A stretch of 63,182 bases of DNA, the filler included, from Kipferlia bialata (Eukaryota), in assembly GCA_003568945.1 (NCBI GenBank). It is 6 parts of 6 records of this genome, joined end to end, with 100 filler letters (N's around TTAATTAATTAA, not from the genome) between each part and the next. Parts side by side here need not be neighbours in the genome. Positions count along the whole stretch, not along the records: positions 10,554 to 21,005 come from BDIP01001421.1; 5 more parts are not named here. One strand, 5' to 3'. Under the pieces are notes generated by a model. That model saw nothing but the letters and a program-made list of their open reading frames with translations, was not told where the DNA came from and searched no databases. The position numbers and the translations under genes are program-made. Shown piece by piece: positions 10,606 to 42,099 of this stretch. Position 1 is the first letter of the stretch. Each line of letters begins with the position of its first letter.

Positions 10606-10667
10606 CGTACAATGACACACTCAATTGATACTTACTGGATACTGACAGTGACATCCCTACCCCTCAC

Positions 10668-11476
10668 CTTCGTTGGACTGGTTGAGCTCTCTCTGCCTCT
10701 TCAGCCCCAGCAGGGCAGCTCTCTCAAAGGCAGTGTCGACACCGTCACCCGCCTTGGCAGATGCCGCAAACACCTCGACTATGTGTCTGGCATCAGACAG
10801 AGCCCCCTGGGCCCTGACAAGGAGAGGCTTGACTATACGGGTGGACTCAATGTCGTCAACCTGGCGTCAGGCAATCATGTCATATCATGTGGTGTACAAC
10901 GGATACTGAAAATAGGACAGGACTGATTCGCAAACAAACCGAAGAAGACAACATCAAAAGTATACCTTGTTGGCAATGACGACCAGAGGGAAAGGAATGC
11001 GCTCCCTCTCCCCGCCCTCCCCGTCACTCTCCATTTCACTGTCATCATCCCCGTCCCCAATGCACAGGGCGTCGTCCAGACTACTGCGCCACCTGTTCAG
11101 AGAGTCCACAGTGCTTGGTCGAGACAGGTCGAAGACAAGCATGCACGCATCTGCCCCACGGAGGGACGCCACGCTAATCTGGCTGAACGACTCCTGACCG
11201 GCAGTATCCCAAATGGCCAGCTGCACCTTGGTCTCAGGTCCCTCAGTGCCGTCCTCGTTTGTTTCCCGCACCAATACACTCTTGTTCAGGAAGTCAAGCC
11301 CAATCGTGGCCTTGTATGCATTGGAAAAGTCGTTATTCACGAACCTGATGGGGTTAGTGACCTGGTAAACCACTCAGAACCATACAACAACTGCACAGCA
11401 TGTACCTCCGCATAAGGGATGTCTTCCCAACGGAAGAATCCCCTAGGATCACCAACTTCAGGTTCCTGCTTGACAT
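10668..11476 (-). CDS. Rab family small GTPase (Rab7-like, divergent), 3 exons visible, C-terminus truncated
   Basis: MSSRNLKLVILGDSSVGKTSLMRR / FVNNDFSNAYKATIGLDF...IWDTAGQE...RGADACMLVFD...VVIANK / VD...SAKAGDGVDTAF. G1-G5 motifs are present. Confidence 0.9.
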
Positions 11477-11697
11477 TGACACTTGTTCACGGACTCACAG
11501 GCTGTGTAACTGCTCTGGCCCTTCTTCTCCTGTGCTGAAGAGCAGAACTGAGTTCACTCGCTGCGCCCTTATTGTAGAATGAAAAACGGCTGAGTTCCAG
11601 TAATACAGCCTCCTTGATACTCTTTACACTGAGTGTCAGGCGCTGTCCTACTGACTATTCGGGGAAAGGATAAGGTGACTGTGGGCAGTTGTGTTGC

Positions 11698-13395
11698 ATG
11701 CTGCCCATGTGGGGAAATGGCGATCCCTTGAGTGAGCGGGTTGCTGAAGAGCAGCGATTTTCCTTGGGTGAGTACTGGAATTGTATACTGATGCTGATGT
11801 CACTTGTCTTGTATTGGCGCGGTTTAAATCTTCTAACTCCAGGTCCGCAAGCATATATGGACCGGTTCAGCGTGCCAATATATGTACATGATCTGTATGA
11901 GCAGCAGGTACGATGTCTCCCCTTGTACTGTTCACTGGTTGTCTCTTGCCACTAAATCAGGCCAAGACCCGGCCTAGTGATCCAGTTCTCTTTGCTGAGC
12001 ACTACTTTAGGGATCTGGACTCTGGCGCAGGTATGTAACTCTGTGCAGTCCAGTATGGATCGTTGTCCCCTTACCCAGCTGTACTGTACCGGACGTATGA
12101 CTTCAGTATCAGTATCAGTATCATAGATCTATCATAGATACTGATACTGATACTGACCCAGCTGTACTGTACCGGACGTATGACTTCTGCACTGCCACCA
12201 CCCGCAACACCCTTGCCCTGCTCTCCAACATTAGGAAGGGGGTGGCGGGGTTTGATGCCTCAGCCCCGTCCCAGGGAGATGGGTCCGACCCAATATCAGA
12301 CCTGGGTACTCCTGACCTACCCGCCCAGGCCCTGTCCATACCGGACTGGACAGAGCTGTTGCAGGTGGGGGGTGTTACTAGTGATGTGGTGTGTTGGTGT
12401 ATGACTGATACTTGTATTGGGTATCCCAGAGTCCCTATGGTGCCTGGCCCCACCCCAGATGATGTGCCCCGACTTCCCGTCCCGGGTGCTGGATGATGTG
12501 GCAGAGATACTCCTGGCCAACCCATCGCTGCAGGGCACCAGCACCATCCCGGGGGAGGAGGGTCGGAGCGTGAGTGACTTCACCCCAGCAGAGTTCCTGC
12601 CAGTGCTCGAGACACGTGTGTTCTTTTCACGCTTTCTGAAGAAGGTATCTTCTGCTATCCAGATCCCACAGCTGCAGTGTCACTGCCCCTGTCTTACATA
12701 CTTACATATTCTCTGACAATGTCGACTGCAGGTCCTGACTGCCTTCCAGACCCAGTATCAGTATCAGTATCAATATATACAGTAGTGCCTTCTCTATAAA
12801 CACTGATGCTGATACAGGTCCTGACTGCCTTCCAGACCCAGTATCAGTATCAGTATCAGTATATAGTAGTGCCTTCTCTATATATACACTGGTACTGATA
12901 CAGGTCCTGACTGCCTTCCAGACCCAGCTGGTGGAGGCCAAGCCCGAGACCCCGAAGGACAGGGCTGGGGCCAAGAGCCCGAAGGCGGCCAAGGCCCAGC
13001 ACCCGAAGACAGGGCGGGTCAGGGTCAACGGGATGAGTGCCGTACTCAGTGCGGTGTTGGTTGCAGAGAAGGCCACGTGCGTGTGCCCGCCCCCCTACCC
13101 GTGCCGCAAGGCTGCAGTGCGTACCGAGGATGCCCTGAAGGAGTGGAACAAGGCCAGGGACCAGGAGCTGCTGGCCCAGCGGGAGGTGGCCTGTCAGAGC
13201 AAGGCAGTGTCAGTGTCAATGGGGTCTGCCTCGCCCTCTGCCCTGCGGAGGACTGGGTCTGGGTCTGGGTCTGGGTCTGGGTCTGGTCTGGGTGGCATGG
13301 GTACCCCGGTTGCAGTCAGAGCACCCCTCACCATCGAGAGGATATTCCTGCTCTTCTGCTACTACCTCTCCTCCCAGGAGATCCTGCACCAGTGA
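11698..13395 (+). CDS. CSTPP1/C11orf49-like tubulin polyglutamylase complex regulator, multi-exon
   Basis: AYMDRFSVPIYVHDL...FAEHYFRDLDSGAAVLYRTYDFCTATTRNTLALL...LSIPDWTELLQMMCPDFPSRVL...FTPAEFL...FFSRFL matches recalled C11orf49 (EYFNSVCQGTHILFREFSFVQATPHNR...LLQLLCPDFP...YSEFL). Start is ATG 11698 or 11707. Confidence 0.7.
12073..12187. repeat. 32-bp direct repeat flanking a 51-bp palindromic (CAGTAT)3...(ATACTG)3 insert
   Basis: ACCCAGCTGTACTGTACCGGACGTATGACTTC occurs at 12073-12104 and 12156-12187. A perfect 19-bp inverted repeat lies at 12104-12122/12137-12155. Confidence 0.95.
12729..12927. repeat. Three 27-bp acceptor+exon-start copies separated by (TATCAG)n...CTGATA spacers
   Basis: CAGGTCCTGACTGCCTTCCAGACCCAG occurs at 12729, 12815 and 12901. 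Confidence 0.95.
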
Positions 13396-14160
13396 CCGCC
13401 ACCTCACAAAACAAGGCTGAGGGGTATATGCAGTGCTATGGCTCTATGGAGATGGACAGGGTTGTGTGGTGGCTTGTTGTATTATGTGTTTATTGTATTT
13501 GGTTATCCCCTGTGTGTCACTCCATTCTAAGCAATAGAGACTCTGGCTGTATCTATATGACTGTGGCAGCGGATGGGACATATGTGTATTTACATATATA
13601 CTGGAAGGGCGGTGAGTCACCAGTGGTGACAAAGTGAATACTATCGCCCCACTTGGAATCCCAAATATCATAGTCAGCTATCATGCCCAGAATATCACAC
13701 TAATACTCTGGTACCATAGCCAAGCACACCAGTCAAAACGTACCATGGCAACTCCAATTCAGCACATCATGCCAAAAGTGCCAGATTCCAAGGGGAGAAC
13801 CATCCGATAGGTAGGTCAACCCTGCAACACGAGGGAGACGACACCATACAAGGTGATACCTCATGTGTTGATACATCTCACTTCGGGAAAAGCTCTGATA
13901 GCCACTTCTAGACCACATACCCTGGACCCAGACACGTGCAGATAGAGCAAACCCTTCTCAAGGGCTCAGAGCACAGAAGGGATCAGAACCAGCCACACCA
14001 GTATTAACAGGACACACCGCTGACAGTACCGTGGTGCACTTACACATACCGGTGGACACTGTCGATGTAAACACAGTGAGTGTACACATATGGACATGGG
14101 GGCACATGCGTGGCAACAATGGCCCCTGTGTTGGATACAGTGTGCATCAGTCACCAGTCC

Positions 14161-15540
14161 TCAGTCCTCCTCTGTTGTCTCCTGGTCGATGCCTGACCAG
14201 GTGTCAGTGTCAGAGGTGTCACACAGACTGTCCTCCAGGGCATCACCTACATCACCTACATCACCTACATCACCATCCCCCTCCCCACCACCATCACTGT
14301 GTGTGGAGTCCGTAGGTAGGGAGGGTATGTCCCCAGGGCCATGGGGAGCAGCCTTCCCACCCTTGGTGACCATAGCCACTAGTGATGCCCAGACACCCCT
14401 GACCACGGCATACCCCACCCCCCCGCCCACCTCTGGGGCAGCATCCCCCACCGCCACAGACACCACCCTGACACCTGCAGCACCCATGGCCCTCAGACAG
14501 GCACCCACGTTCACACCCAGCACACACACCTGGTATCAGTATCAGTGTCAGTATCTGTCAGACACCGCTCCATATGATACTGATCTATATATTGCATATA
14601 TCCACACACCTGGACCCACGATGCAGTGGGGGCTCCCGCCACAGCCTGCCGCACCTCTAGGTAGAGGAGGGGGAGAGAGGCGTGGAGGGCGGCAGGGGAC
14701 ACGAGTAGAACCCTACAGAGTGTGACTAGGGATGGTAGTGCGGCACAGAGAGAGAGGGCGGGCCCCCAGTCCAGCAGCCATAGCACATTGAGCCAGACGC
14801 ACACCAGACACTCCGCTGTCCTGGGCATAAAAGGGAAGGATGGGGTGGGGGGGGATGAGAGGGGGGGGGGGGACACGATAACCTGAAGAATGATAGACCC
14901 AAGAATAACAAAGTGTTCACTGCCCCCTGCCTGTCTCTCAGCAGCTGTCTTGATGATACTGATACTCATACTGATACTTTTGATACACGGACACATGATA
15001 CGCATACCTGCCTATCAGCAGCATGTGGATGCCGATGGACTGGTACTGCGGCACCGACCCCCATATCAGTAGGGTCTCGGTCACAGAGAGAAGGGCGTCA
15101 GGAGGAAAGAGGTCAGAGTACCCTACTACACAAGAGACATCAGAGGGGTGCGGGTCCGGGTCTGACAGAAGCCCCTCTGATAGTACTGTGGCTGCTCGCA
15201 CAGAAGTGTCCAAGGCCACCCACAGCCGGAGGGCAACGGGGGTGATGTCCTGAGACCCCTGACACGTGGGGTGGTCATTGGGGAACATCACCCGCCACAG
15301 ACACCATAGGGCGCACACCCCGGCCACTCCCAGCAGCATCGTCCGTAGCATGGTCCGGCAGACGCTGCTGAAGTATGGGGAAGAGCCAAACCGAGCCAGA
15401 GACCAGCTAACAGATAGGGTAATCGCCACAATGGTGCTGGTGACTGTGCACCATCCTATGAACCAAAATGTGGCAGGAAGAGACTCAACTACCCGTGTCA
15501 GGGAACAGACGTCAATCAATGCCTCTAAGCCTGGCATGCC
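14161..15540 (-). CDS. Hypothetical multi-pass membrane protein with acidic C-tail, about 3 exons, start uncertain
   Basis: Hydrophobic segments (FWFIGWCTVTSTIVAITLSVSW; LLGVAGVCALWCLW; LVCVWLNVLWLL) joined through GT-AG introns to ...DQETTEED*. Confidence 0.5.
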
Positions 15541-15707
15541 AGGATGGCGGTAAAAGAGTGACAGACAGAGCAATAGTTGGAAATGACATTGCAAAAGCGA
15601 AGGCAATGTGTCAACCATTGCATCAACGGTTGCATCAATGATTGCAACCAAAACGTTGCGAAGAGGAAAGCTGTCACGAAGAGCATTCTTTACGACTGAT
15701 AACACAA

Positions 15708-15809
15708 GTAAGTGGGTCAGGGTAGTAGATTGACGCTCTTAACGTGTGGCTGAGTGTCATAAGGGTGTTTATTTTGTTGCTGCTCTTCCCTTCCGTTTGC
15801 TAACCTCAG
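15708..15809 (+). other. Probable 5'-UTR intron of profilin
   Basis: GTAAGT at 15708 and GCTAACCTCAG ending at 15809, 2 nt before the ATG. Confidence 0.6.
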
Positions 15810-15811
15810 AA

Positions 15812-16408
15812 ATGTCTTGGGATGGAATTCTGAGCCAGATGCTGACCTCCAAGGGCAACTGCACTGAGGGTGCTGTCTACGGACGCAACGGTGCTGTGTG
15901 GGCCAAGTCTGCCAACTTCTCCCTCAACCCTGAGGTTTGTAGATGGTCATGATGGGTCTTTGACAATTTGACAAGTTGCCCTCTCTTCCTCTGTTCTCAA
16001 CCCAGGGCATCATCCAGTCCATGTTCTCTGACGCTGGCCGCGAGTACCTCCAGACCAACGGACTTTACATCTCCAACTCCCGCTTCAGATTTGTTCGCGG
16101 AGACGATGAGGTATGAGTGAATGTACAGTGATCATAACAATTACACTCTTCCTTTCCGTACAACATGTTGATGTGTCCCCTCATATTATCACGACCACTA
16201 TCAATATGGTACAGAGCCTTGTGCTGACTTCCAGGTGATCATCATGGCCGCCTCCAAGCCCGAGGACGAGAACCTCCCCCACGGAGCCTTCTTCATCGCC
16301 ACCAACCAGACCGTGGTGTGCGCCGTGTTCCCCGCCCGCACCTTCAAGGGCGCTGCCTCCCTCGACGCCCACGCCCTCGCTGACTACCTCAAGACATCTG
16401 GGTACTAA
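15812..16408 (+). CDS. Profilin, 3 exons, complete
   Basis: MSWDGILSQML...EGAVYGRNGAVWAKS / ...LQTNGLYISNSRFRFVRGDDE / ...ATNQTVVCAVF...ALADYLKTSGY*. Strong C-ending codon bias; AATAAA near 16493. Confidence 0.93.
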
Positions 16409-16938
16409 GCAGGCACTTTGGTGCACCCAGGTTTTGTGGTGCGACAAGCTGCTCTGTAGGTCATTCTCCCAGCAGTGTGTTCCTCTTGTTGGAATAAATG
16501 TGTGTGTGTGTGTGTCTTTTCAGTATTGTGATGTCGTGTATACATGTTTTGGTTGAGTTTGAAAGAAGGTGGTTTGGTAGTATTTGTGGCAATTGGCTCC
16601 TCTGTGTATTGTCACTGGTGTGATCAAGGGTGTGTATCAGTCCCCAGCAGACAGATGTTCATACCCTAGATGGTATTCCCAACGTGATACTCATGTCATA
16701 TGACTGACTGTGTCAGAGCGGTTGCTCGTAGAAAGTTGCCTGTAGAGTGTTCAATACCACTTCATATAGTATGAGAAGTCAGTGCTGGATACATCGTGTA
16801 AACTCTGTATGACAATGCTAGGCCTAGTCACTGTGCTTAATACCTATCATCATGAATTCACTCAGGCATTGGGCAGTAATCAGGTCTTGGTTCTTGGAAG
16901 GTATTAAGTCTGGCACCCGTAGACATGTACAACGATAC

Positions 16939-21105: not shown

Positions 21106-21154
<49 letters not shown>

Positions 21155-21162
<8 letters not shown>

Positions 21163-24100
21163 AGGTGGGCTCTGCCATCCCATAGGTGTATATACAAGGT
21201 AGATATGCACGTAAGATCATTACCGTAGAAGACATGATTCTTGCAAATACCAATGTATATCCACGCCACTCACCGTCCAGCAGTAGAATCGAGGGTCTCC
21301 CGGTCAGTGCGATGGCCAGACTGCACCTGATGGGTCAGTGAAATATGGTATGTATATACTATATACACATACTATATACACTTGTATGATGTCAATGTAA
21401 TGGCCAGACTGCACCTGAAGGGTCAGGGGCGTATTACAATATACAAATGATGCCCCCAGACAGGGTGTATCTCTCTCTCTCCCTAGCTCTATACACATAC
21501 CCATACTACACATATAATATACTGTACCTCCGCTGCATGCCCCCAGACAGGGCCCCGATGCGGTGGTCCCTCTTCTCGGTCAGGCCTAGGGGTAAGGTCA
21601 TACACAAGGAGAGGGAGGGAGAGAGGGAGGGAGAGAGTAAAGAACCACACACTCTAGCGTACCTACGCTCTCAATGAGTGGGTCAACTGCAGCCAGTGCC
21701 TCCTGTCTAGACAGACCCCTCAGCCTCATGTAGAAGACAACCTCCTCGTGCACAGTAAGCTCGAGGTGGAGTCTAAGGGGTCAGTACGTCTGTACGTGTG
21801 AACACATACAACAGTAACAGTTCAAATACACTAGATCTATATACTGTCTCTCACCTGTCATGCTGTGGACACACTCCCAGCTGACTCAGCAGCCTGGCCT
21901 TGTCCAACCTGGTCACATCGCCACCAGCTATGTAGACAGTGCCGCTACGGTTAGTATATATAGTCGTATGTATATACATATATTATGAATGTCTGTAAGT
22001 GTGGCCTTGTCCAACCTGGTCACATCGCCACCAGCTATGTAGACAGTGCCGCTAGAGTTAATGTCTGTAGTCGTTTGTATATATATATACTATGTAGGTA
22101 TGTATAGTACTTGTCCAGCCTGGTCACATCACCCCCAGCTATGTAGACAGTGCCGCTAGGGTTAGCATGTAAAGAGTGGAATGAATACAAAGCTATGTAG
22201 ACAGTGCCACTGAGGGTAAGGAAAGGTAGTTGGAATGTATGATGACACGACATAAAACTATACTAACACAATAGGTGTGTGGTCCCATCAACAGTACCAC
22301 TGAGTGTTAGTATGTATAAATATTGAATCGAAAGAGTGGTACACTGGAAACCGCAGTATACCTAGTTGGTCTGAGTGTGCCGCATATGAGGTTGATGGTG
22401 GTAGATACACATTCATATATGTATATAGATAGATATATACTCATATATATATATATATATATATACTATACCTTGTGGGTCTCAGTGTGCCGCATATCAG
22501 GTTGATGGTATATATACAGTATATATGCTTATAATACTATACTCATATAAAGATATAAGTATACATATATACCTCGTTGGCCTGAGTGTGCCGCATATCA
22601 GGTTGATGGTGGTATATATACGATATACATATGAATACACTCATATATACATGTATAGATGTTTCATATACCTAGTAGGTCTGAGTGTGCCGCATATCAG
22701 GTTGATGGTGGTATATATATATAGATAGATATATAGATATATAGATATATAGATATATATTTGTGTATATATATATGTACTATAATGTACTATATGTTAC
22801 CTAGTTGGTCTGAGTGTGCCGCATATCAGGTTGATGGTGGTAGATACACATTTATACATGTATATATATAGATATATACTCATATGTATATATATACTAA
22901 TGCATTCTACCTCGTTGGTCTGAGTGTGCCGCATATCAGGTTGATGGTGGTATATATACAGTATATATACTCATAATACTATACTCATATATAGAAATAT
23001 ATATATACTATACCTAGTAGGTCTGAGTGTGCCGCATATGAGGTTGATGGTGGTGCTCTTGCCAGCACCGTTCTCTCCTGGGGTGTGAGCAAATGTATAC
23101 ATACGCATATTTATATATATATAGAGAGAGAGAGACGAGTTAGAGGTCATTCGAACAAGAGCAAGGAATATCCATATATACACTTAGCATCCCGAAGCAC
23201 ACGAGAAACAGACACAACACACACATATACAGGTATATAATCATTGAGAGAGAGATACCTAGCAATCCGAAGCACGTGTCCTTGTCGACAGCAAGGGAGG
23301 TACGGTGAACGGCAGTGTTGGCTGGGTCTCTACCCGTGGCCGGGAATACCTGGGTATGGGAAAGAATACAGAAAGACAGCGTGTGAATAATAGTAGAAAT
23401 ATCACTCCTAGATCGAATATGAGAGAGGGCCGGGAAAACTCACGCAACACACTAAGCACTATACCTGCAACTCTATTGTATCCATTTATACCAGTTTATA
23501 TACATATACCTTCTTGAGCTGTGTGATGACCAAGGGTGGCAGACCACTTGCCATATATATAGTACGTCATGCTTTTAGAGAGTGTACATAATATGTAGTG
23601 TATAGTACATACCTTCTTGAGCTGTGTGATGACCAGAGGTGGCAGGCCACTCTCTCCCTCTGTCTCTCCCTCTCCCCCTCCCGCTGTCCCTGTCTCCCCC
23701 TTGACCAGTGTCTGCACCCTCTCTCTCTCAAGGGCGACATCGGCATCCTCATCTACAGTTAGGGGCGTATAGATATACTTACTTATGATATATAGTATAT
23801 AGTAAACACTATGTGTCTGTATTCTCTCTCAAGGGCAACATCGGCATCCTCATCTGCAGTGAGTATAATTTGTATGAGGTATTGTCATCCCATACATGTA
23901 TACTACACAAATACCAGTACCTTCCTCGTCTCTCTGCCCATCTACCAGTAGGGCAGTGGTCTCTGTACCAGAAGACTCTCCCTACAGTGAATGATATAGA
24001 TATAGCTAGAGGTAGTAATAGTGGGAAACAAATGTTCACTACACTCTATATGTACAGCTGTGCAGTGCATATCCTCACCTCGCAGGCGTTGGCCCCGTAC

Positions 24101-24353
24101 TTCTCTCTCTCTCTCTCTCTCAATGTGTATGTATAACTCATATATAAATATAGGAACACTATGGTACATTGCATCCTCACCTCGCAGGCCTTGTTCTTGG
24201 CCTTGGCCCCGTACTTCTCTCTCTCTCTATATATATATCTATACATACAGAATGTAGCTACTAACCTCGCAGGCCTTGTTCTTGGCCTTGGCCCCGTACT
24301 TCTCTGGGAATATGTACCCAAGGAAGAAGAGAGGGTTCAGACGGGACTAGAAT

Positions 24354-24393
<40 letters not shown>

Positions 24394-24700
24394 GAGATGT
24401 ACCCGAGGAAGAAGAGGGGCTAGGGTAAGTTACATATTAATAATTTAGAAAATGACAGATATAGAGAGAGAGAAGGAAGAAGTGGGGGTTCAGACGGGAC
24501 TGGGGTAGGAAATATTGAAGCTCAAACATTGACAACACAGAAATATCAATACGCTATACAGTAGAACCCTACCTCCCCAGCCGTTGGGAGTACGTTGTCC
24601 AGATAGCTGCCTATCAGTCCATAGACCAGACCCTCAAGCACAAGCATAGCACAACCGAAGAGGAATTGTCTACCTCTGGGGGTAAGTATCGGGTATGGAC

Positions 24701-24731
<31 letters not shown>

Positions 24732-26344
24732 ACACTCCCCAAGCACGCATGCATGAAACAGTAGAAGAGAGAGTACTCTATATACATACATCAGTGTGAG
24801 TCCAGTCATATCGACAATGATGAGGGAATATAGAGCAGTCGCAGAAACTATACCATATATCACATACCTCAGTGTAAGTCCAGTCATATCGTCCATGGTG
24901 ATCCTCTCTCTCCCCCTCTCTCTCTCTCTCTCTCTCTAATACTACTTATATATATACCTCAGTGTCAACCCAGTCATATCGTCCATGGTGATCCTGGAAT
25001 CCAGAGGGCCAACGGGGGTGAGGTAGGCTAAGAGTAAGGAGAGAGAGAGAGAGAGACAGAGTTACACAAGATGTTGAAGAGCAGGAAGAACGCTATATAT
25101 ATATGAACAGGTAAGGAGAGAGAGAGAGAGAGAGAGAGTAGCCAGAGGGCCAATTGGCGTGAGGTAGGTGTTAGATTGGAGTGAGAAACCAACAGAGCAG
25201 AAAGACATAGTACACGTTGAGCGGGAGGAAGACACACACGCACATGTATACTGAACTAAAACATGAATGGAACACATGTAGTTGAATAACGGTTCTAGTA
25301 CTCTACGTACGTACACAGAACGCTACATATACATGAACAGAGACAGAGAGACTACATACACAGCATGTTGAAGAGCAGGAAGAAGGGCCAGACGTATATG
25401 CAGTCAGGGACACCGAGGAGCAGGAACACATTCTGGTAGATGGGGGCCTAAGGGTTAGATATATATATATATACATAGAGAGAGAGAGAGAGAGTCTGGG
25501 ACGCCGAGTAGGAGGAACACATTCTGATAAATAGGGGCCTGGCAATAAGGGGGTAGAGGGGGGGGGGGAGAGAGAGAGAGAGAGATTATGTGACACGCAG
25601 CAGCAGTAACTCTCTGCACGTGTATGGAAATGGATGAACTATACCTGGAACAGTAGGATGATGACTGAAGATATCTGTAATAGAGACTGCCAAGAAGATT
25701 GCTGTCTTTGTCTTTTTGATAATACATATAACATCAATAATGGCCAGTAATCAATAACATCAATTCCCTAACTACACACCTGGAACAGTAGGATGATCAC
25801 TGCCAGGAAGATGGCCGTCTTAGTCTTTGTGAAGAATATACCAGCACACAATAATAGTAATCAATTCTCTCAGTGTGTACCTGAAATAGCAGGATAATCA
25901 CGGCCAGGAATATAGCCGTCTTTGTACCTCTAAATACTAGTCTCTAAAAGGATAAAATACCTGGAATAGCAGGATAATGACTGCCAGGAATATAGCTGTC
26001 TTTGTCTTTGTGAAGAATGCGGCATAGCACAGAGAGACACCGGCACAGGCTATACCCCAGGAGACACCTGGTGGTTAAAGGGTGTAGAGAGAGAGAGAGA
26101 GGGAGAGAGACACCGGCACAGGCAATGCCCCACGAGATACCTAAGGGTTAAAGGGTGTATAGGGGGAGAGAGAGAGAGAGAGAGAGAGAATGCCGCATAG
26201 CACAGGGAGACACGGCACAGGCAATGCCCCACGATACACCTATAGTCAGAAAAAGGGTGTAGAGAGAGAGAGAGAGAATGCCGCATAGCACAGAGAGACA
26301 CCGGCACAGGCAATGCCCCAAGATACACCTAGGGATTAAAGGGT

Positions 26345-26396
<52 letters not shown>

Positions 26397-28790
26397 TACA
26401 CACCCACAAAAGCAAAGTCACCCATATACTCATAGTATATAGGTCTAAGTACTGAGAGAGTGTCGGTATCCAACTGTGCACTCATGATGACCCAGGCCGG
26501 CATAGTATACACACATATACTTACATACGTATAGAAAATGAATATTGGCACTACTATAGTATACTATAGTATACAAGTAGATATATATATATATATATAC
26601 TCACTCAGAATGCCTATAAGTATATATATATATATGTCTTCACTCACTCATGATGACCCAGGCCAGGCCAGCATTGTCTGTGTACTCGGGCTGGGGTTAT
26701 GAGAGACAGAGAGAGAGAGAGAAAAGATACAAACTTATACCGGCATTGTCAGTGTACTCGGGCTGGTGAGTCAGACATAATGAGAGAGAAAGGTATAGAG
26801 AGAGACTTATATATAATAGAAATAGAAGAAAATATTTCATGTATACATTGAAAATTGTATACCCACCTGATTTGTGAATAGTCCGTAGAAGTACACAAAG
26901 GCATAGACCAGGACAGAAGTCTTGCATTCATATACAAATACATATACATATAGTACATGAGTATAAGTATAATAGTATGTGGAATACCCACCTGATTTGT
27001 GAACAGCCCGTAGAAGTACACAAAGGCATAGACCAGGACACTGATGGCAAAGCAGGAGATCATCCAGGAGATGTAGTAGGCCTTGAACCTGCGAGATAAG
27101 CATTTCATATTCATATTACGCGAGATATGCATAGACCAGTACACTGATGGCAAAGCAGGAGATCATCCAGGAGATGTAGTAGGCCTTAAACCTGCGAGTT
27201 AAGCTATTACTATATCGCGAAATAGGCACTGAGGCATATACGCGAAACAAGCTCTGTCAAAATGGTTCACAATGAGAGAGAGAGAGAGAGAGAGACTTAC
27301 CTCATTCCAGCCAGGAGCATGTTCTCCTTGAGCTTGTTCTCCTTCTCCTGGGGTGAAGAAGATATATATACGTATATATATATACATATAAAAATGAACA
27401 AGCGCAATAATGATGAATGAGTGTCAAAAGAATGCTCTCCTTGAGCTTGTTCTCCTTCTCCTAGGATGCAGATATGATGATACAATGTATATATATATAT
27501 ATCTATTTATTTATATATATGTATATATATATATGAAGTAATACAATAGCTTCTCCTAGGATGTTAATATGATGATAATACAATGTAAACACACAAATAT
27601 ATATATACACACACACATATATAAATATATATATAATAGTAATAGAATGGCGCACAATGATGACGAATGGATGTCAAGATGATGTTCTTCTTCCTCCTGG
27701 GGTGAATGACAGACCCCTACACACAGTGTTGAATTGATACAATAATGGTGAACATTTGGGTTGTGAACAGATATGAGTCCATGCAAATAGAACACACACC
27801 TGGATGATGCTCATCACAAACACGAACGTCATTATAAGAAATACAATACACTACAAACAGTATATATATAGTGTAATCTTTCCTTACTATGTCTAGCTAA
27901 TATCCACGAGATATATATATTAGATATATATATATATATTATGCATGTCCATGTACCTGGATGATGCTTGTGATGTGTATCACAAACACAAAGGTCAGCA
28001 CGAAGCAGAGCAGGGGGAAGGTGAGGGAGGAGATCTGGAAATGAGGGTGTTGGGAGAGAGACAAAGTGTATGTAGATTCACACTGTGAAGACATAAGCCA
28101 GTATACTGATATTACTAAATATTTTGGTACATATTGATTGTAATGAAAGAGCACAAATACTGTCCCTCTGTATCAACATGCACTCACCACTGTGTTGGTG
28201 CCCATTGGGATGGGGTAGGTCAGGATGCTGAGTATATCAATGTATATTTATATGTATATATACTAATACACATATATACTAACAATATGGATGCACTCAC
28301 CACTGTGTTGGTGCCCATGGGTATGGGGTAGGTCAGGATGCTGGGGGTGAGAGGGTGAGTGCGACAAGTATACATCTATATTCATATACACGTACTTAAT
28401 TTCTTGTGACCGTTTGACCTGCCCTTGTCCAAAAGAACCCCAAGTGTAAACAAAGAGAGAGTATATGTAAAATATATAGTATGTAGAAGTGTGTTCAATA
28501 AGTATAAATGTACTGATATATCATACGCAGTACGTACTGTATCTCCTGGGAGGGATATGCCTTAGATCTCCCCCCCTTCTCGGCCCATGCCTCTAGGGCC
28601 AAACAAATGAGGGTGTAGACTATATTACATATATATACACATATGTATACACATATACGTACTGTATTTCCTGTGAGGGATAGGCTTTGGATCTGCCCCC
28701 CTTCTCGGCCCATGCCTCTGGGTCACCAGATACAATGAGGTCAGAGACAATGCCCTCGAAGATAAGGAGCATCTGGGTGCCCTTGAGTTA

Positions 28791-28822
<32 letters not shown>

Positions 28823-29303
28823 CAATGAGGTCAGAGACAATGCCCTCAAAGATGAGGAGCATTTGTGTACCCTAATGTAAGAGAGAGAGAGACAATGAGG
28901 TCAGGCACAATGCCCTCGAAGATGAGGAGCAACTGAGTGCCCTATGGTGAGTGCTATACAGTATCTATAGTATATATAGAGAGTATATGTGTATACATGT
29001 ATATATATACTGGACAATGAGGCCAGAGACCATCCCCTGGGGTTAGAAAGAGAGAGAGCATATAGATATACATTCACTTACCACAGAGTACATACATCAA
29101 TATATAGGCATCATATATATCTATATATACATATACTCATTATTGTTGCTGTTCCCATTGTTACATCTATACATATACATATATACTCTGTGTATTATAT
29201 ATATATACATATTATACCTGTATCATGATGTTGGTCTGCATGCAGTTGATGTAGCCAATGAGGTCACTCTATACAATAGTACTATCCACAGAGTACTATA
29301 TCA

Positions 29304-29341
<38 letters not shown>

Positions 29342-31555
29342 TACCTGTATCATGATGTTGGTCTGCATGCAGTTGATGTAGCCAATGAGGTCGGCCATCT
29401 GGATGGTGTAGTCTGCAACAATAGTCTGAGATAAGGGTGTAGAGGGGGAGAGTGTGTGTATAGACATACGCCACAGTGTAGACCTATACTTATCCAGTAC
29501 CTCTGGCTTATGTGGGTATGATGCTGTCTCTGCATCATAGAGGAACATGTCTGTGCCCTCCCTCACAGTATATATACATACAAATCAATATATACATATC
29601 CAATACTATACAATATAGACAGATTAGACAAAGGCATATCTAATACCTCTGGCTTGTGTGGATAGCTAGCTGTCTCGGCATCATAGAGGAACATGTCTGT
29701 GCCCTCACATATATGTATGATACACTGTATACTACTGTAATATCATAGCAGATATTGTACCTCAGGCTTATGTGGGTATGATGCAGTCTCTGCATCATAG
29801 AGGAACATGTCTTTGCCCTCACAAAGTATATACATACATATCTATATATACATATCCAATACTATACAATATAGACAGTATATACAAAGGCATATCTAAT
29901 ACCTCTGGCTTATGTGGGTATGATGCAGTCTCTGCATCATAGAGGAACATGTCTGTGCCCTCCCTCACAATGTAGGCAGCATTGGGCATGATGTTGACAT
30001 AGGCCTATAGTTAGGGGTGTAGAGGGAGAGAGCGAGAGAGAGAGAAGGTGTGCAGCATGATGTGGCTTCTGTACTACTGTACTGTTACTATACATACCTT
30101 AGTATCCATCATGTCCTGCATCCACAGGTTGTAGTTAACATATATAGTCTCTACTTCTATATTATTGTCACACTATGTCTTACTACATTTATACCATAGT
30201 AGTGAACATATGTATAGATACACTATACCTTAGCATCCATCATGTCCTGCATCGACAGGCTGTAGTATACACACACATACTAGTACGAACATATATGATA
30301 AATATACCCATCGTACAGTCTACTACATAGTATAATATAGATATACCTTACTGTCTACCATGTCCTGCATTGATAGGTTGTTGTTGCACCACTCCATCGT
30401 GTCATAGAGATACCAGTATTCTATACATATATACATGCCTTACTATCATATATATACACTAGTATACTATATACATATATATATGTGTGTGTCTGTACCT
30501 TACTGTCCACCATATCCTGCATTGATAGGTTGTTGTTGCACCACTCCATGGTGTCATAGAGATACTGGTCCATCTCATACTCAGAGTCAAAAGGCTCCTA
30601 GTCATTAGAATAAGGGGAGTTTCATTAGATTAGGCTATTGCATATATATATATATGTTAGATCTACAAACAGGGAGAGAGGGGGAGTTAGATCACGGTCC
30701 ATTCCTATTCCTTCTTGGAAGAAGAGTGACTGTGGTAATAACTGTGGATTCTCTTCTAATCTCTCGATACATAGCTCCATACATGCTTTACATTTCCAAT
30801 ACAAATAAAAAATTTGCATACCTCTACTACGTTAGGGAACCTCTCACAGTAGTACACTGGGTATGGCTGGTCCTCGTCCCAGTAGTTAGGGACGCAGTAC
30901 TCAGACAGAGTATCTATCTGACAATAAGGGTGTAGAGAGAGAGAGAGAGAGAGAGAGATAGGGAACTAGAATGATACTAGTATGGACTACACACAAGGTA
31001 TCCATCAAGTAGTGACTGCAGTATTCGCTATACTCCAGATTAGAAGAGACCATTGAGTGGTTCCACGTGCCGTGTAACCAAGCATAAATTGACCATGTAC
31101 ATATGTAAATGTATACATATGTATGCTAAAAATTCACGTACCGTGTAACAAAGCAAATTCCTCCACATCCCACTGTATGTAGTGTCGTCTCCCTATAGAG
31201 AGCACATACTATGCGTATACTACATGCTATGAATACTATACGTACCGTGTATCCTAAGACGTTCCTCCACATGCCACTGTATGTGGTACCGTCTCCATAG
31301 AAGTGGTTGGTCTCATTCATGTGGATGTAGCCCCACTGCGCAGCGTCTAGGAGTTAGTGAAGAGTATACACTCCTATTTACACAACCACACACACCTACA
31401 CCGTTACACTATAGTGTCAAAACGATATATCGCGTAATGACTCACTTGCTGGGTCCTCGAATGTCTGCACAATGGCACTGATGAAGCCATTCCTGACATG
31501 AGGGTGTAGAGAGAGAGAGAATACAAAATGGCACTGATGAAGCCATTCCTGATAT
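21155..31555 (-). CDS. ABC transporter subfamily A, internal fragment spanning the whole scaffold, about 30 tiny exons
   Basis: EKENKLKENMLLAGMR..FKAYYISW (ABCA hallmark), TM exons, Walker A GENGAGKSTT, GVCPQHD, LTVHE, signature LSGGMQRR, Walker B ILLLD|EPTSGL. Confidence 0.92.
22003..22951 (-). repeat. Intronic half-exon echo arrays (6 donor-side and 3 acceptor-side copies)
   Basis: Copies of ACCATCAACCTSATATGCGGCACACTSAGRCCNACNAG|GT at about 22361, 22471, 22572, 22671, 22800 and 22910. Copies of AG|YGGCACTGTCTACATAGCT.. at about 22003-22054, 22110-22158 and 22192-22212. Confidence 0.95.
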
Positions 31556-33033: not shown

Positions 33034-36000
33034 TCACACGAAGCCCAGGTCTACGAGCAGGTTGACCACTCCTGGGGTTAGAGTATCACATATACACAAT
33101 CGATGAAATACATATATGCAAATATACTGGTGCATTGTTACATTCGGAATACCCACCTGGCAGTATCTCTATGGACCCCAGGCAGAGTGATAGGAATGTC
33201 TGGACCAGTATCTTGATGGGGTCATTGACCACAGCGTCCTGGGCTTAGGGGTGTACTATCGAATAGGGGAATACACTGTTATGTATAGCAACATAGTAAT
33301 GCCACTATTTGCTACCTGCACCACCCCGAGTAGATTGGCCACCATCCATGCTCTGCCCACCGTCTTTGCAAACTTCATGCTGTAGAGGAGCATCAGGAAC
33401 CCAACGCCCAGTAGGTACAGGAAGGAGAGGCTGTACCACAGGTATGCGTAACCGTAGGGGAGGTCGACCAGGGAGAGAGAGAGGATGGCACGTGAGAGCC
33501 AGTTCCTCTCCCTCGGTGGGAACCTCTTCCGCAGTGCACTATCCTTATGCTGGCCTATGGGTCTAGTGTGGGAGAATGCATACCTGAGCAGCATTGATGG
33601 AGGCAGGGCTATGATGGTGGTGCCACACGCTATCAGGAATGTTTGTGTGTATGTGTAGGGGACACACACGACGTCTGTGACAAGTAGGCCCTCCTCCCCT
33701 GGTCTGGCCACCCCTTCCTCACAGTCTGCTCTGAAGAACATGGCCGAGGTCAGGAATATGCCAAAGACAAAGACAAAGATGTTGGTCACTCTCCTAAGAG
33801 TGAGTGTAACGATAGGAACAATACAACCGTTCTGAGCAGTGTTCTTTGAATTGAAGAATCTACTAGCGAGTACCTCGGTCCTGTCATGTTATCGTCCTTG
33901 GCTGCCTTGTTGAACACCAGGGCACTCCACTCGTGGCCGGTGTAGATGTTAACCTTTAGCTTGCGCTTGAAGGTTGTCCAGAAGTTGACCTTCTCTCCAT
34001 CCTGGATGTGCTGCACCTTGGCCTGTGTAAGTAGATATATATATATATACACATATATACTGTATATACAAAGTAGATGGATATACATGATACTGTGATA
34101 ACACTTGCCTTGATGAAGCGCTCTGTACGCAGCTCCTGCAGGTCTGGCTGTGGTATGCGGAATGTGGTAGTCTTCCTCATGTTTGTTGTTGCACTATCTG
34201 GTGGAGTGTGGCAGGCGCGAGATAGTACAGTGGTATCAGCCCAGTTGAGTTCAGGAACACCCTTGGGTCTCTCCATATCACTAGAAGAGCCTCCACCGCC
34301 ACCAAGACCAGGATCGTAACTATCACTCAATTCCTCTGGGTTAACGTCCTTGACGGATAGAGTACCAGGACTAGGCGGAACGTCAAACGGTGTGAACACC
34401 ACGCTGTGCATTGACACACAAGACAGTTCATTACCAGTAGAGTCAGTCGCATTGGTGGCTCTAGCTGTCATGAACTCCCACTCATTATCACCGTCTCTGA
34501 CAGCCTCATCTGGCAGTGACGCGTCATTCGATGATGCATACATAGGGTTGACATTCCTTGCAGCCTTTGGCTTGAAGACCTGGGCTCTAAGGAAGGTGGC
34601 CATGCCGTTCTGCAGATTGTCAAAACTCAACACGATCATCAAACCCGCGTAGACAGAGAAGCACACACCCAACAGGTAGAGACCAAGTGGGTTATCTTCG
34701 ACTGATGAGAGTAGGTCAGGTATCTCCTCTGGGTCGATAGTGTTGACGTCAATGCCGTACTGGTGGAAGAATGCGACGAAGGATGTGAAGTGGTCTGTAT
34801 CGGCTAGGATATACCCAAGGTCAGGGTCGTAAGGGAGTGTGGTGATACCCGACTCACTCCATGCAGTGCCGTCCCAGGCCTTCACTAGGAGTGTGGCATT
34901 GAGAGACATACACTCATCAGGGTCGGGGAAGGAGGAGAGGGGGAGCTTGATACGGACAGGACTGCTTAGACCAGTGACCGACTGTTCCATACCATTCAGT
35001 GTATCAACTACCACAATAGATGTCATGGGCGAGTAGAATGATGTTGAGTTGTCTCCCATGTAGGGCTGGGCAACCGAGACCATTGCTAGAGCCAGGTCAC
35101 TGGTTGATCCAACCTCACTGCCGAATGTGGGAGGTATAGTAAATGAGGCATCTGATCCTGGTACTGATACCTCCTGCTCTACAGACTGAGTCGTCACTGC
35201 CTGAGCACTGAACTGAACATGCTGTGTCTCAACCTCCACAGGGGTCTGACCATCAACGAGACCACTTGCAATCTCTGCAGCCATAGTACTAACAGCACTG
35301 AATGCAAGCTCTGCAGTAATGCTACTGGTATCCGTCTCATCTTCACTCCAGATATTGTATTGCACACCGGCGTATATCCTCTCAGTCACACTCACAACGT
35401 CTCGCACTACTCTTGCGTCTACATTCCCACTCTCTGCCAGTGTGCCAACAATAACAGCCAGGGACTCAAGAGGTGCGGACTCCATATGAGAGAGGAGACC
35501 TAAGATGCGTGTAGCTAGCTGTTGGGCACCAGGTAGGGATATGATGTCATCCAGGGCTGACTCCACAGTAGCCGTCAGAAGTGCCACCACATCAGCCGAG
35601 AGAGTGTGATCATTGTCTGAAACAGTCTTTGTCAGAGCATCCAGAATGTTAAGTGCACTCGGTACATTGGCAGCCACAATAGCAGACTCCAATAGCTCAG
35701 CCATTCTCAAGGAGTATGAAGCCAAGTCAGTGCCATCCTCAAGAGTGACAGAGACTGTAGCAGTGTCAGTGTACGTCACACTAGCGCCACTGTCGTCTGT
35801 GACTATGACCCCCAGGTTATAGTCACCAATGGGTAGATACAACTCAGTTGAACTCCAGTACTCACTGGAGGCCATCTGTTTAGGTTGGGTCTCTGAACTG
35901 TCAACCGCTTGATAGGTGAATGTGTACTTCAGTGGACCAAGACCTAGGGGTGCTACCCATCCTTCAGCAGTGACAGACAGAGTCTCTGTTGCAGTCAACT

Positions 36001-39000
36001 CATGAGTGGATACTGTGAGTGATCCACTAGAGGGGGACTCTGAGGGAGATATCGTCTGATATGCAACACCCTCTTGGCCATCAGAATCTGTACATGTCAA
36101 CTGGAATTCATACTGGAAGAAGGAAGACATAGAGTCCGCAGCAAGAACCAGGTTAGGTGTCTCCAGAGATGTTGACAGGAGAATGTCAGGACTGTCCAGA
36201 TCCAAAGTGGGGCCAGATATTTGCTCCCACAGGAATGAACATGTTGATCCAGTTAGGGATATGCAGTTACTGCGGAGAGTGGTTTGAGCTGACTCCATTG
36301 GAGTCTCAGGGCTGATGCTGATACTACAATCTAACCCGGTGTCCTCAGTAACTGTGAGGGTGACTGAGGAGTATGATGTCTCACTGTCGACAAGAGATCT
36401 TGATGCAAGGAGTCCAATCACATATTCTCCTGTATCAACGTCGGTAGTGTCAATGCATACGGTGTCTACAGCATCACTGACTACTGCAGCCGTAGATAGA
36501 GTGTCTGGTATGTCCCACTCCAGAGAGTCGTAGTGTGTAGAGCACGATGTCAGACACACTGCCTCTCCACTAACTACAGTCCTACTCTCAGCACTTATGC
36601 AACTGACTGGGTCCAGTATCTGTGACACAATCTCAATGGAGTCCTCCCCAAATGTCTCAGTGGCACTCACGTCATAACGGGCACGCACACTAATCGTGTG
36701 GGTTGTACCCTCATCGAACGATGCTGCAGGTACCGACAGATAAGCCGATGTTGACCAGACATCAGTGATACCAGCCAGGTTCTCGCAGTTATCCCCACTG
36801 CAGATCCACATAAACTCAATAGAGGTTGCATCCCAGGATGACTCATACAGAGTGGAGTGTGTGCCTTCGGCCACCAATACAAAGGCATCCTGAGAGACAG
36901 AAAGAGGGCTGCTTGCCAGTATCCGTACCTGTGGCACAGTCTGGTCAATGATCAGTACCGTCTTTGTAGCAACAGATGAGTATCCACTAGACGTCGACAG
37001 AGTCAGAGAAACCACAAGATCAGTTTCAAGCGGCAACTCGTTCTCCGCAACATCGAGTAAGAGTGTGGACTGGGCCATGTACTCGTCGCCAAGGTTAAGT
37101 CTGGCCCCATTGTATGATGGTATGGTGACACTCCACTTATAGGATACGTCACTGTTGGTCTCTGTCTCTCCCGCAGAGAGGGAGAGACTACCTGAGGAAG
37201 GGAAGGCAGTACCACCCAGAATGGATGCTTGGGGGTAACTCACTACAACAGGTTCTTGGATGATGACTGCATGTGGGGTCTTAAGGTGACCAGGGTATTG
37301 GATTAGGTCATAATACTCGGCATCCGAGTCAACTTGTGGCAATACAGCAATGGTCTCGGAGAGGATGAGTGACCCTCCACTTGATATCTGAGCTGTGTCA
37401 ATATCACTACCAAGCAGTACAGTGAGAGTACTACCGACACCCCTGGTAAGTGACACATCTGACAAGTAGCACTGAGGGTCTGTGCCCAGCCAGGACACAT
37501 CAGCTAGCAGGTCATCACAGGATACAGTGCCGATGGTGGCGTCCAGTGATAGCTCTGGGAGGGAGAGAGATATGCGGCTGTAGTTGCCAGACCACACTGC
37601 TGTTGCATCATCATGCATCACACAGACACTCACTGTGGTAGAGGCTGTATCCCCATTGGATGTTGTAGCCTCGACTAGGATAGTGGTAAAGATATCCACC
37701 TCTAGGGTCAGTGTTGGATCGACCTCCAGTACCAGACTGCTCAGACAACTGTTGATGTCATCGACTAACCCGTTCCATACACAAGTGGTTATTCCGTCAT
37801 CGGTAATAGTAATGTCAGCAAATGACTCTGCTATCCACTGCAGAGTGCCGTCTGCCAGGGGGTTACCATCCTCATCCCAGAGGCCATCAACCATTGACAC
37901 TGTCACTTCCAGAATCTCATTGATATCTCTGTACTCAACCAGTGGCAGTATCGAGATATCCAAGACCTTACTTACGTAGAGTGTGCCGTCGTACTGGATG
38001 AAGGTAGGAAATTCCGGTATCATTGTGACCTCAATTGGCGATGTTACTATGTCCCAATCCCCATGGATAGTGTCAAGGACACTGATGGATAGCGTGTCTG
38101 TGCCATAGAACTCTAAGGGAGGAGAGTATGTCACACTGTCCATTAGAGTGCTCAGGTCCACAGATGTACCAGTCAGGCACAGAGACCCTTCCACCACTGT
38201 GGTCTCTGCTGAGGAATGCAGTGTACCGTACTCTACCGACAAGCAGCCAGTAAGACTCTCATCATCGTATGGTGCGTGCTCAAAGGTGATACCGGAAAGA
38301 ACAGTGGTACTCCCCTCCTCTACAGTCAAGGAGGGTACTGTCACTTGTGCTGTATACTCTACCACAGTAAATGTAGTAGTTGTGCCAGTGAGTGTCTGAT
38401 TCTCTACAAGTAGAGTCAGTTTGTATTCCCCGAGGTCTGCAAGTATAGTGGAGCCAAGTGTACATGACTGCTGTAGATCCTCTCCTTGAGACATAGTGAG
38501 TGTCTGTGATCTCACATAGTCTCCGAGATCAATGGATACCCTGACATACACTGTCTGCGATGTGACCGTGTTACCAAACTGGTCACGGACAGTAGCCAGT
38601 ACGTCCAGGTCGGTTCCGGAGAGTTGGGTAGATTGGTCACCTGGAGTGACAATCTCAGACATGGCACCGGAAGCGGCACCGTGGCCGATGGTAAGGGATT
38701 CTTCTGTTGTTGGGTACTCTGTACCTTCTAGACTCAACACCATCGAGTAGCTCCCACCGACTGTCAGTGCTGAAGTCTCACCGGTGTACAGGGAGAGAGT
38801 GTCGCTGTAGGACAATGGGAGTGAGAGGACCAAGTCAGAGTCTGATGCATAAACATTGAGAGCAACAGTAACGCCTGTGGGTATTGTGTTACGACATCCA
38901 TCAAGTACTGCGGCAGCCAGACTGAGTACATCATCAGGACTGTGCACCTCTGTAACAGGAACAATGGAACTCTCATAGGGCGACATGGCGCCAACAGTCA

Positions 39001-42000: not shown

Positions 42001-42099
42001 TAAGCCTGTATGCCCCTGCCGAGTATGTGAGGCTGAGGGTGGTTCCAGTGTAGCCGGCAGGGCTGGACGTGACCTTGGCCACCACAGCCGCAGTCGATA
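33034..42099 (-). CDS. Giant polycystin-1-like receptor: Ig-like repeats + cadherin-like + REJ + GAIN/GPS + 5 TM, 5'-truncated
   Basis: An ~8-kb open exon (34109-42099) carries repeated LTAYVRDQYGN Ig units, REJ-like segments (FLWEQISGP, PSSGSLTVS, LKYTFTY, LYLPIGDY), GPS-like AWDGTAWSESG...DHFTSF and TM1. Further exons give HEWSALVF...RRVTNIF..TSAMFF and LLYSMKF...AW...QDAVVNDPIKIL, ending VDLGFV* (stop 33034-33036). Confidence 0.85.
34023..34108 (-). other. GC-AG intron
   Basis: AAG|GCAAGT donor and TTACACAG| acceptor join ERFIK|AKVQHIQ in frame. Confidence 0.75.

What the first reader, a model, noticed from the sequence alone, without database searches (positions are those of the whole stretch)
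12073..12187. Palindromic (CAGTAT)3..(ATACTG)3 insert with a 32-bp target-site-like duplication across a 3' splice site
Seen: an identical 32-bp acceptor+exon-start duplication flanks a 51-bp insert with a perfect 19-bp terminal inverted repeat built from a hexamer. The first copy runs into a stop. The second continues the ORF, and its branch motif (ACTGAC-CCAG) is contributed by the insert end. The insert begins GTATCAG and ends CTGATAC on either strand, so it offers donor-like and branch-like signals in both orientations. Inference: this is a freshly made echo that points to the mechanism, either a tiny introner/MITE-like element or staggered-break repair with hexamer filler synthesis.
Basis: partly seen in the sequence, partly recalled or inferred. 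Interest (0 to 1): 0.85.

Follow-up and report, generated by a model that had tools for sequence, protein, structure and literature searches.

The report
Duplicated splice site with palindromic filler
In the intron-rich protist Kipferlia bialata, a splice site and the start of an exon were copied around a short palindromic filler that the spliced RNA skips; it is likely a DNA-repair scar, one of about one such 'exon echo' per kilobase in this stretch, and it may show how this genome builds its introns.

Summary
The feature is real. An identical 32-bp acceptor-plus-exon-start duplication (12073-12104, 12156-12187) flanks a 51-bp insert with 20-bp inverted (CAGTAT)3 arms. The window is Kipferlia bialata; the host gene carries a CSTPP1-like name. 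DNA contigs give the same structure at flank depth, with no empty allele seen. The RNA contig's coordinates fit a splice from 12030 to 12162, so copy 1 and the insert sit inside a lengthened intron (48 to 131 nt); no new intron was made here. It is not an introner or MITE by the tests run: duplications are 11-32 bp and variable, the middles differ, and a published screen found no introner family in this species. It is one of 65 near-tandem 'echo' loci in 63 kb (0-1 pairs in shuffles). In 21 of 31 mapped pairs the copy stops within 10 nt of the splice site. Best reading (0.55): a staggered break repaired by alternative end joining in a Ku-less, Pol-theta-bearing organism, both ends extended with a hexamer likely copied from tracts 650 bp away. 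Open: why breakpoints hug splice sites, and whether this process makes new introns.

The parts
11698..13395 (+). Host gene, six coding exons; public model P0066 (361 aa), named 'Centriolar satellite-associated tubulin polyglutamylase complex regulator 1' by UniRef
   Evidence: the name is the source's, homology not re-tested here
12031..12161 (+). 131-nt GT-AG intron removed in the main transcript; holds copy 1 and the insert
   Evidence: RNA contig record 9 coordinates reproduced exactly by this exon chain; the joint row itself was not printed; same structure in P0066
12031..12078 (+). Inferred original 48-nt intron ending at the first acceptor (CTTAC-CCAG)
   Evidence: inference: left flank + one copy + right flank; sequence
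12073..12104 (+). Copy 1 of the 32-bp duplication: 6 nt of intron end plus 26 nt of exon start; now intronic
12105..12155 (.). 51-bp filler
12103..12122 (+). Left arm of the 20-bp inverted repeat, (CAGTAT)3 in register with the last 2 nt of copy 1
12123..12136 (.). Middle: 10-bp palindrome ATAGATCTAT plus 4 extra nt
12137..12156 (-). Right arm of the inverted repeat; its end completes a CTGAC branch-like motif for the second acceptor
12156..12187 (+). Copy 2 of the duplication; acceptor at 12161 and exon start used in RNA
12079..12105 (+). Possible in-frame 27-nt micro-exon (would add 9 aa, no stop); not seen in RNA contigs
   Evidence: X2 depth 0 at 12132 and bin depth explained without it
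12729..12927 (+). Sister echo in the same gene: three 27-bp acceptor-plus-exon-start copies (12729, 12815, 12901) separated by two 59-bp fillers with GTATCAG...CTGATAC inverted ends; the last copy is used
14530..14609 (-). 80-nt GT-AG intron of a neighbouring gene, flanked by an 11-bp direct repeat holding AG|GT and ending in (CTGATA)n-CCAG; candidate intron made by the same process
   Evidence: RNA record 11 starts a piece at 14603; upstream piece inferred from bin depth, joint not printed

Best explanation
A 32-bp stretch across a 3' splice site is duplicated around a 51-bp near-palindromic filler that the spliced RNA skips, and it likely arose when a staggered DNA break was repaired by alternative end joining that extended both broken ends with the same (CAGTAT)n repeat. 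Inferred steps: nicks 32 bp apart left two 3' overhangs. Each 3' end primed on a (CAGTAT)n tract through 1-3 nt of homology, probably the tracts 650-740 bp away in the same gene. The two extensions annealed through the self-complementary 10-mer in the middle, and fill-in doubled the target. Pol theta is the likely enzyme. The allele is tolerated because the filler's end completes a CTGAC branch motif, so the second acceptor is used and the protein is unchanged. The same duplication-plus-simple-repeat-filler event appears to have struck most exon edges of AT-rich genes in this genome; this is the palindromic subtype.
For: Shown: exact duplication and arms. Skipping in RNA and in the public model. 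The 19-nt arms have exact matches at 12754 and 12840, and 6 of the window's 7 hexamer tracts of 12 nt or more lie within 12103-14966, against a rough 40-45 other-locus matches in the whole DNA run. Both arms start at the duplication borders in register, here and at the sister locus. 65 echo loci versus 0-1 pairs in each of 20 shuffles. Exact duplications run 20-53 nt and fillers 30-146 nt; 1054 distant filler pairs share only microsatellite words among the 12 longest matches printed. K. bialata has PolQ and lacks Ku70 and Lig4 (PMC8516963, Supplementary Data 2 rows). Complementary 3' overhangs give tandem duplications, sometimes with in-cis templated inserts under TMEJ (PMC5730883 passages; PMC8355091 abstract). 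Pol theta mixes untemplated, snap-back and in-trans synthesis (PMC4912351 passages).
Against: No empty allele or outgroup was seen, so the order of events is inferred. Breakpoints hug splice sites (21 of 31 pairs share 10 nt or less of intron), which random nicking does not predict; selection should favour larger intron shares. In mammalian cells most 3'-overhang duplications need Ku and Lig4, which this organism lacks. Templates 650 bp away are distant for typical Pol theta insertions (recalled), and the direction of copying between the tracts is unknown. Only 2 of 48 fillers have inverted ends, so two-ended extension is visible only in this subtype. All 4 tracts of three or more units could also reflect local hopping of a tiny element.
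Confidence: 0.55

Rival explanations
1. RNA-linked origin: a reverse transcriptase or Pol theta acts at transcribed splice junctions (R-loop edge, splicing intermediate, or twin-primed target-primed reverse transcription on a simple-repeat tail), so one breakpoint is set by the splice site.
For: Median intron share 6 nt versus exon share 43 nt, near the 2-3 nt that unrelated splice sites share by consensus. At this locus the duplication starts at the putative branch A, position -6. Variable long duplications suit target-primed insertion (recalled). 0 of 54 exact echoes of 20 nt or more lie in the 8.1-kb intronless ORF.
Against: Acceptor-side shares vary from 0 to 13 nt and do not line up on the branch A in general. 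No common element body lies beside the arms: flank agreement 0.54-0.62 among 3-4 contigs per place. Purifying selection alone explains the empty ORF. The search needed 14 or more exonic bases, which biases shares toward the exon.
Confidence: 0.2
2. Ordinary tandem duplication of exon-plus-intron units by slippage or unequal crossover, followed by fast microsatellite turnover that erases the intron part; the 'filler' is old intron.
For: Some units are near-perfect whole duplications (111 nt of a 117-nt period at 96%; 81 of 86 at the sister locus). In three pairs the intron part is 77-80% alike beside a 97-100% alike exon part. An earlier scan note reports junction echoes in a sea-urchin gene (unchecked).
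Against: Here the copies are 32 of 32 identical, yet the insert does not resemble the intron upstream of copy 1 and is a perfect inverted repeat, which slippage does not make. In another whole-unit pair exon and intron parts diverged equally (90% versus 91%).
Confidence: 0.12
3. A tiny non-autonomous DNA transposon (MITE or introner) with GTATCAG terminal inverted repeats inserted here and at the sister locus.
For: Inverted ends at the duplication borders in three fillers. Another genomic contig matches both arms over 12106-12156 with 4 substitutions and 4 gaps. The ends are donor-like and branch-like.
Against: Duplications of 32, 27 and 11 bp are variable and longer than cut-and-paste target duplications (about 2-10 bp, recalled). 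Arm number and register vary. Middles are unrelated. 0 introner families for K. bialata in PMC12130899 supplementary file 7, though a low-copy, low-complexity family could be missed.
Confidence: 0.1
4. Assembly artefact at a repeat.
For: Fragmented short-read assembly; the DNA run may be its source.
Against: Separately assembled contigs span both junctions at flank depth.
Confidence: 0.02

Closest known systems
Daphnia pulex new introns from staggered double-strand-break repair (PMC4202315, passages read; reviewed in PMC3443670, passages read)
   Same: AT-rich insert of no clear source flanked by a direct repeat of exon-edge sequence; repeated rounds at one place.
   Different: Daphnia exon-intron repeats are 4-12 bp and mark new introns inside exons. 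Here repeats are 20-53 bp, span existing splice sites, mostly lengthen existing introns, occur at about 1 per kb, and arise without Ku or Lig4.
Tandem duplications at breaks with complementary 3' overhangs, and Pol theta insertions (PMC5730883 and PMC4912351 passages; PMC8355091 abstract)
   Same: Duplication of the stretch between two nicks, with templated or snap-back filler and 1-3 nt junction homology.
   Different: In mammals these mostly depend on classical end joining and rarely carry 30-150 nt of simple-repeat filler; no tie to splice sites is reported in the passages read.
Introners / MITE-derived introns (PMC12130899, passages and one supplementary table row read)
   Same: Short, inverted ends, splice-like signals at both ends, flanking direct repeat.
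   Different: No conserved interior, no fixed duplication size, no new intron at this site; K. bialata scored 0 families.
Internally symmetrical sister (stw)introns of Hypoxylaceae (PMC8469720, passages read)
   Same: Intron-sized palindromic sequences with 45-55 nt terminal inverted repeats and a central 10-nt palindrome; end-joining proposed.
   Different: Those insert seamlessly with no flanking duplication and are similar along their length; this one has a 32-bp duplication and hexamer arms.
Intron gain by tandem genomic duplication of AG|GT (PMC3443670, passages read)
   Same: The 14530-14609 intron sits between 11-bp repeats holding AG|GT.
   Different: Here unrelated filler lies between the copies; at the finding's own locus the duplicate holds no AG|GT.

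Membership tests
Introner / MITE | Terminal inverted repeats at the element's ends | tested here: met
   20-bp arms, overlapping the duplicates by 1-2 nt; 14-bp imperfect arms at the sister locus
Introner / MITE | Short target duplication of fixed size (about 2-10 bp; recalled) | tested here: not met
   32, 27 and 11 bp at the three hexamer-bearing sites examined
Introner / MITE | Dispersed copies alike along their whole length | tested here: not met
   Other-locus contigs share arms but differ in the middle (tables 4 and 5c; only part of the rows shown); distant fillers share only microsatellite words; 0 families in a published screen
Introner / MITE | Insertion creates a new intron spliced out of an exon | tested here: not met
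   The insert lies inside a lengthened existing intron
Introner / MITE | Autonomous transposase partner with the same ends | not testable with these tools
   No genome held
Break-repair duplication with filler (Daphnia type / alternative end joining) | Direct repeat of target sequence on both sides of new sequence | tested here: met
Break-repair duplication with filler (Daphnia type / alternative end joining) | Filler built from nearby templates or fold-back, with short junction homology | tested here: met
   19-nt exact matches at 12754 and 12840; internal palindrome; 1-3 nt in-register junctions; direction of copying unknown
Break-repair duplication with filler (Daphnia type / alternative end joining) | Empty pre-insertion allele or outgroup | tested here: inconclusive
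   Junction contigs at full flank depth; contigs drop rare variants; one DNA sample
Break-repair duplication with filler (Daphnia type / alternative end joining) | Dependence on Pol theta | not testable with these tools
   Gene present, Ku70 and Lig4 absent per PMC8516963 Supplementary Data 2; dependence untested
Non-LTR retroelement (target-primed, twin-primed tail) | Simple-repeat tail attached to a shared element body | tested here: inconclusive
   Flank agreement 0.54-0.62 among 3-4 contigs per place suggests no shared body; small sample
Telomerase-made interstitial repeat | Hexamer equals the species' telomeric repeat | not testable with these tools
   No chromosome ends at hand; one paper search gave three listings, not read for this point

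The most novel reading that the evidence does not exclude
K. bialata runs an ongoing, splice-site-directed 'echo' process that duplicates exon ends, fills the gap with simple-repeat DNA whose two strands read as donor and branch signals, and thereby moves splice sites, bulks up introns and, where the duplicate holds AG|GT, makes new introns. Much of its 125,000-intron load would then be young and home-made, not ancestral.
Probability: 0.3. Interest if true: 0.85.

Novelty: new variant of a known kind. Interest (0 to 1): 0.6.

Why it matters
The genome paper reads K. bialata's 124,912 introns as ancestral while allowing independent gain (PMC5874029, passage read). A published introner screen found none in this species. 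This locus and its neighbours record a different, high-rate process: long duplications at splice sites with newly made simple-repeat filler, in an organism without classical end joining. If genome-wide, it gives thousands of datable events to test whether break repair alone can grow and create introns, and whether splicing directs where the DNA breaks. It also warns that exon echoes can mislead gene models. As a single locus it changes no protein.

Tried and rejected
No whole genome is held, so the proposed genome scan was not run. A metagenome scan for the two-armed pattern gave 11 loci, all bacterial-looking palindromic repeats with no flanking direct repeat longer than 8 bp; unrelated. Rejected: the insert as a self-contained 56-nt intron in the main transcript (in frame, but no RNA contig shows it; rare isoforms are not excluded). 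Rejected: inverted ends as a general trait of fillers (2 of 48). Rejected: single-strand snap-back as the whole story, because copy-back stops at the duplication border instead of running into the exon copy (inference). Not supported: a general stop at the branch A (shares vary). RNA support for echoes outside 10620-16500 was not obtained; the ABCA analysis rests on a predicted gene model. The profile search to confirm CSTPP1 homology never ran; Pfam gave no family for the four host-gene frames tried at a useful score. Two scan look-ups found nothing for this genome or sequence. Not found in print: searches for Kipferlia + intron (29 of 33 listed), Kipferlia + introner (0), duplicated splice sites in protists, and introner/TIR/TSD/metamonad showed no description of these echoes; listings only for most, and subscription papers are not searched. 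Two supplementary files of PMC12130899 and one of PMC8516963 were not searched.

Full report
Observation. The window holds an exact 32-bp repeat at 12073-12104 and 12156-12187 around a 51-bp insert. The inverted repeat is 20 bp, 12103-12122 with 12137-12156, so it reaches 2 nt into the first copy and 1 nt into the second. The 14-nt middle is a 10-bp palindrome plus 4 nt; without those 4 nt the whole is a perfect 50-bp palindrome. The hairpin has z = -7.5 against 200 shuffles, and the two-armed pattern is found at this one place and in 0 of 100 shuffles.

Organism and gene. A neighbouring Rab-like frame is 100% identical to a Kipferlia bialata protein. The host exon 12459-12644 finds one protein, P0066, 361 aa, which UniRef names as a CSTPP1-like regulator; I could not confirm that homology myself. 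The window is six joined scaffolds. No whole genome is held.

Reads. Four runs hold the stretch, all as contigs. In the DNA run, contigs span 12075-12132 and 12106-12185 at depth 543 and 503, against 516 and 520 in the flanks. The structure is therefore real and no empty allele shows, with the caveats that contigs drop rare variants and this run may be the window's source. Run X2 is labelled RNA only by guess but shows GT-AG joints. Its record 9 has printed pieces ending at contig position 1743, starting at 1877, ending at 2079 and starting at 2267. The exon chain 11842-11904, 11958-12027, 12159-12361, 12456-12642, 12902-13243 reproduces all of these exactly. The joint across the finding was not among the printed rows, so it is inferred from this arithmetic; P0066 has the same structure. 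The main transcript thus splices 12030 to 12162. Copy 1 and the insert are intronic, and the intron has grown from an inferred 48 nt to 131 nt. Using the first acceptor with the insert kept hits a stop at codon 85. Using the insert's GT would give an in-frame 27-nt exon, but X2 depth is 0 at 12132 and the bin depth (118.8) is nearly explained by record 9 alone (106-111), the rest fitting a short match from another locus.

Sister sites. In the same gene, three 27-bp acceptor-plus-exon-start copies at 12729, 12815 and 12901 are separated by two 59-bp fillers with 14-bp imperfect GTATCAG...CTGATAC ends and a middle unrelated to the finding's; the last copy is again the one used. A minus-strand intron at 14530-14609 is flanked by an 11-bp repeat holding AG|GT and ends in (CTGATA)n-CCAG; its splicing is consistent with RNA record 11 but the joint was not printed. 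Six of the window's seven hexamer tracts of 12 nt or more lie within 12103-14966, and the finding's 19-nt arms match exactly at 12754 and 12840. Excess DNA depth suggests roughly 40-45 matches from other loci (rough), with different middles and unrelated flanks in the rows shown.

The wider pattern. Exact repeats of 14 nt or more within 260 bp, low-complexity ones excluded, give 125 pairs in 65 loci; 20 block shuffles gave 0 pairs in 19 and 1 in one. With one multi-copy array left out, the median period over 63 loci is 110 bp. Among 48 clean cases, duplications are 20-53 nt and fillers 30-146 nt; only 2 have inverted ends, both in the host gene, and distant fillers share only microsatellite words. 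Mapping the public ABCA model on its scaffold, 18 of 24 exon blocks counted have echoes, upstream ones matching exon starts and downstream ones exon ends (hand count). For 31 pairs (17 of 25 ABCA blocks given to the script, plus the host gene; not independent) the median shared length is 43 nt on the exon side and 6 nt on the intron side. In 21 of 31 the intron share is 10 nt or less; unrelated splice sites share 2-3 nt. This is biased by the need for 14 exonic bases and by faster change in intron repeats, and it rests on a predicted model, but it is the most striking unexplained feature.

Mechanism. Both 3' ends at a staggered break would have received the same strand of the hexamer, starting in register with 1-3 nt of homology, and the two extensions share a self-complementary 10-mer through which they could anneal. 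This fits alternative end joining. K. bialata has PolQ and lacks Ku70 and Lig4 (PMC8516963, passages and supplementary rows). Complementary 3' overhangs yield tandem duplications, with occasional in-cis inserts under TMEJ (PMC5730883 passages; PMC8355091 abstract), and Pol theta alternates untemplated, snap-back and in-trans synthesis (PMC4912351 passages). Against it: mammalian duplications of this kind mostly need Ku, no empty allele was seen, and random nicks do not explain breakpoints at splice sites. I give it 0.55, an RNA-linked cause 0.2, plain duplication with intron turnover 0.12, a MITE or introner 0.1, artefact 0.02. Shown: structure, skipping, echo density. Inferred: break geometry, template, enzyme, order of events, branch use.

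Comparison. It works like the staggered-break insertions behind new Daphnia introns, whose exon-intron repeats are 4-12 bp (PMC4202315 passages), but with longer repeats across existing splice sites. It is not filed as an introner: three defining features were tested and not met, and K. bialata scored 0 families in a published screen. Symmetrical fungal sister introns lack flanking duplications (PMC8469720 passages). A metagenome scan found only unrelated bacterial-looking palindromes. An unchecked scan note describes junction echoes in one sea-urchin gene, so the echo theme is not unique. My searches found no description for Kipferlia; the genome paper treats the introns as probably ancestral.

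Verdict. Real, recent and harmless to the protein; a palindromic example of a dense duplication-plus-filler process at splice sites. New variant of a known kind, interest 0.6. The bold reading, a splice-directed engine of intron growth and birth, has probability 0.3 and would merit 0.85.

Noticed in passing
window 33956-42099 (-): Intronless open frame of about 2,700 codons with MG2 (E 1e-16) and bacterial Ig-like Big_1 (E 3e-8) matches; looks bacterial, so a lateral transfer or a contaminant scaffold; it holds no exon echoes.
   Followed up: partly
window 21106-31555 (-): ABCA transporter gene (model P0067): 18 of 24 exon blocks counted have echoes; upstream copies match the exon start and downstream copies the exon end (hand count; one multi-copy array left out, five isolated 5-residue hits set aside as chance).
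   Followed up: yes
window 10620-16240: All 10 RNA-backed or RNA-consistent introns checked have 3-4 nt (one 11 nt) of direct repeat across the junction, i.e. strong (C)AG|GT-like sites; branch-like motifs sit 5-8 nt from the 3' end.
   Followed up: partly
L001-L011: Bacterial-looking intergenic palindromes with AGTATCAG...CTGATACT ends, several beside tRNA-like sequences, resembling REP elements (label recalled); unrelated to the finding.
   Followed up: no
window 10620-13395: A Rab-like GTPase gene (-) and the host gene (+) are divergent and joined in one RNA contig. The host protein is listed under two accessions on two contigs, and a half-depth contig differs at 14591-14592, suggesting two haplotypes.
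   Followed up: no
whole window: Six scaffolds of about 10.4 kb joined by N-linker-N spacers, in line with the published N50 of 10.5 kb (PMC8516963 Table 1).
   Followed up: yes
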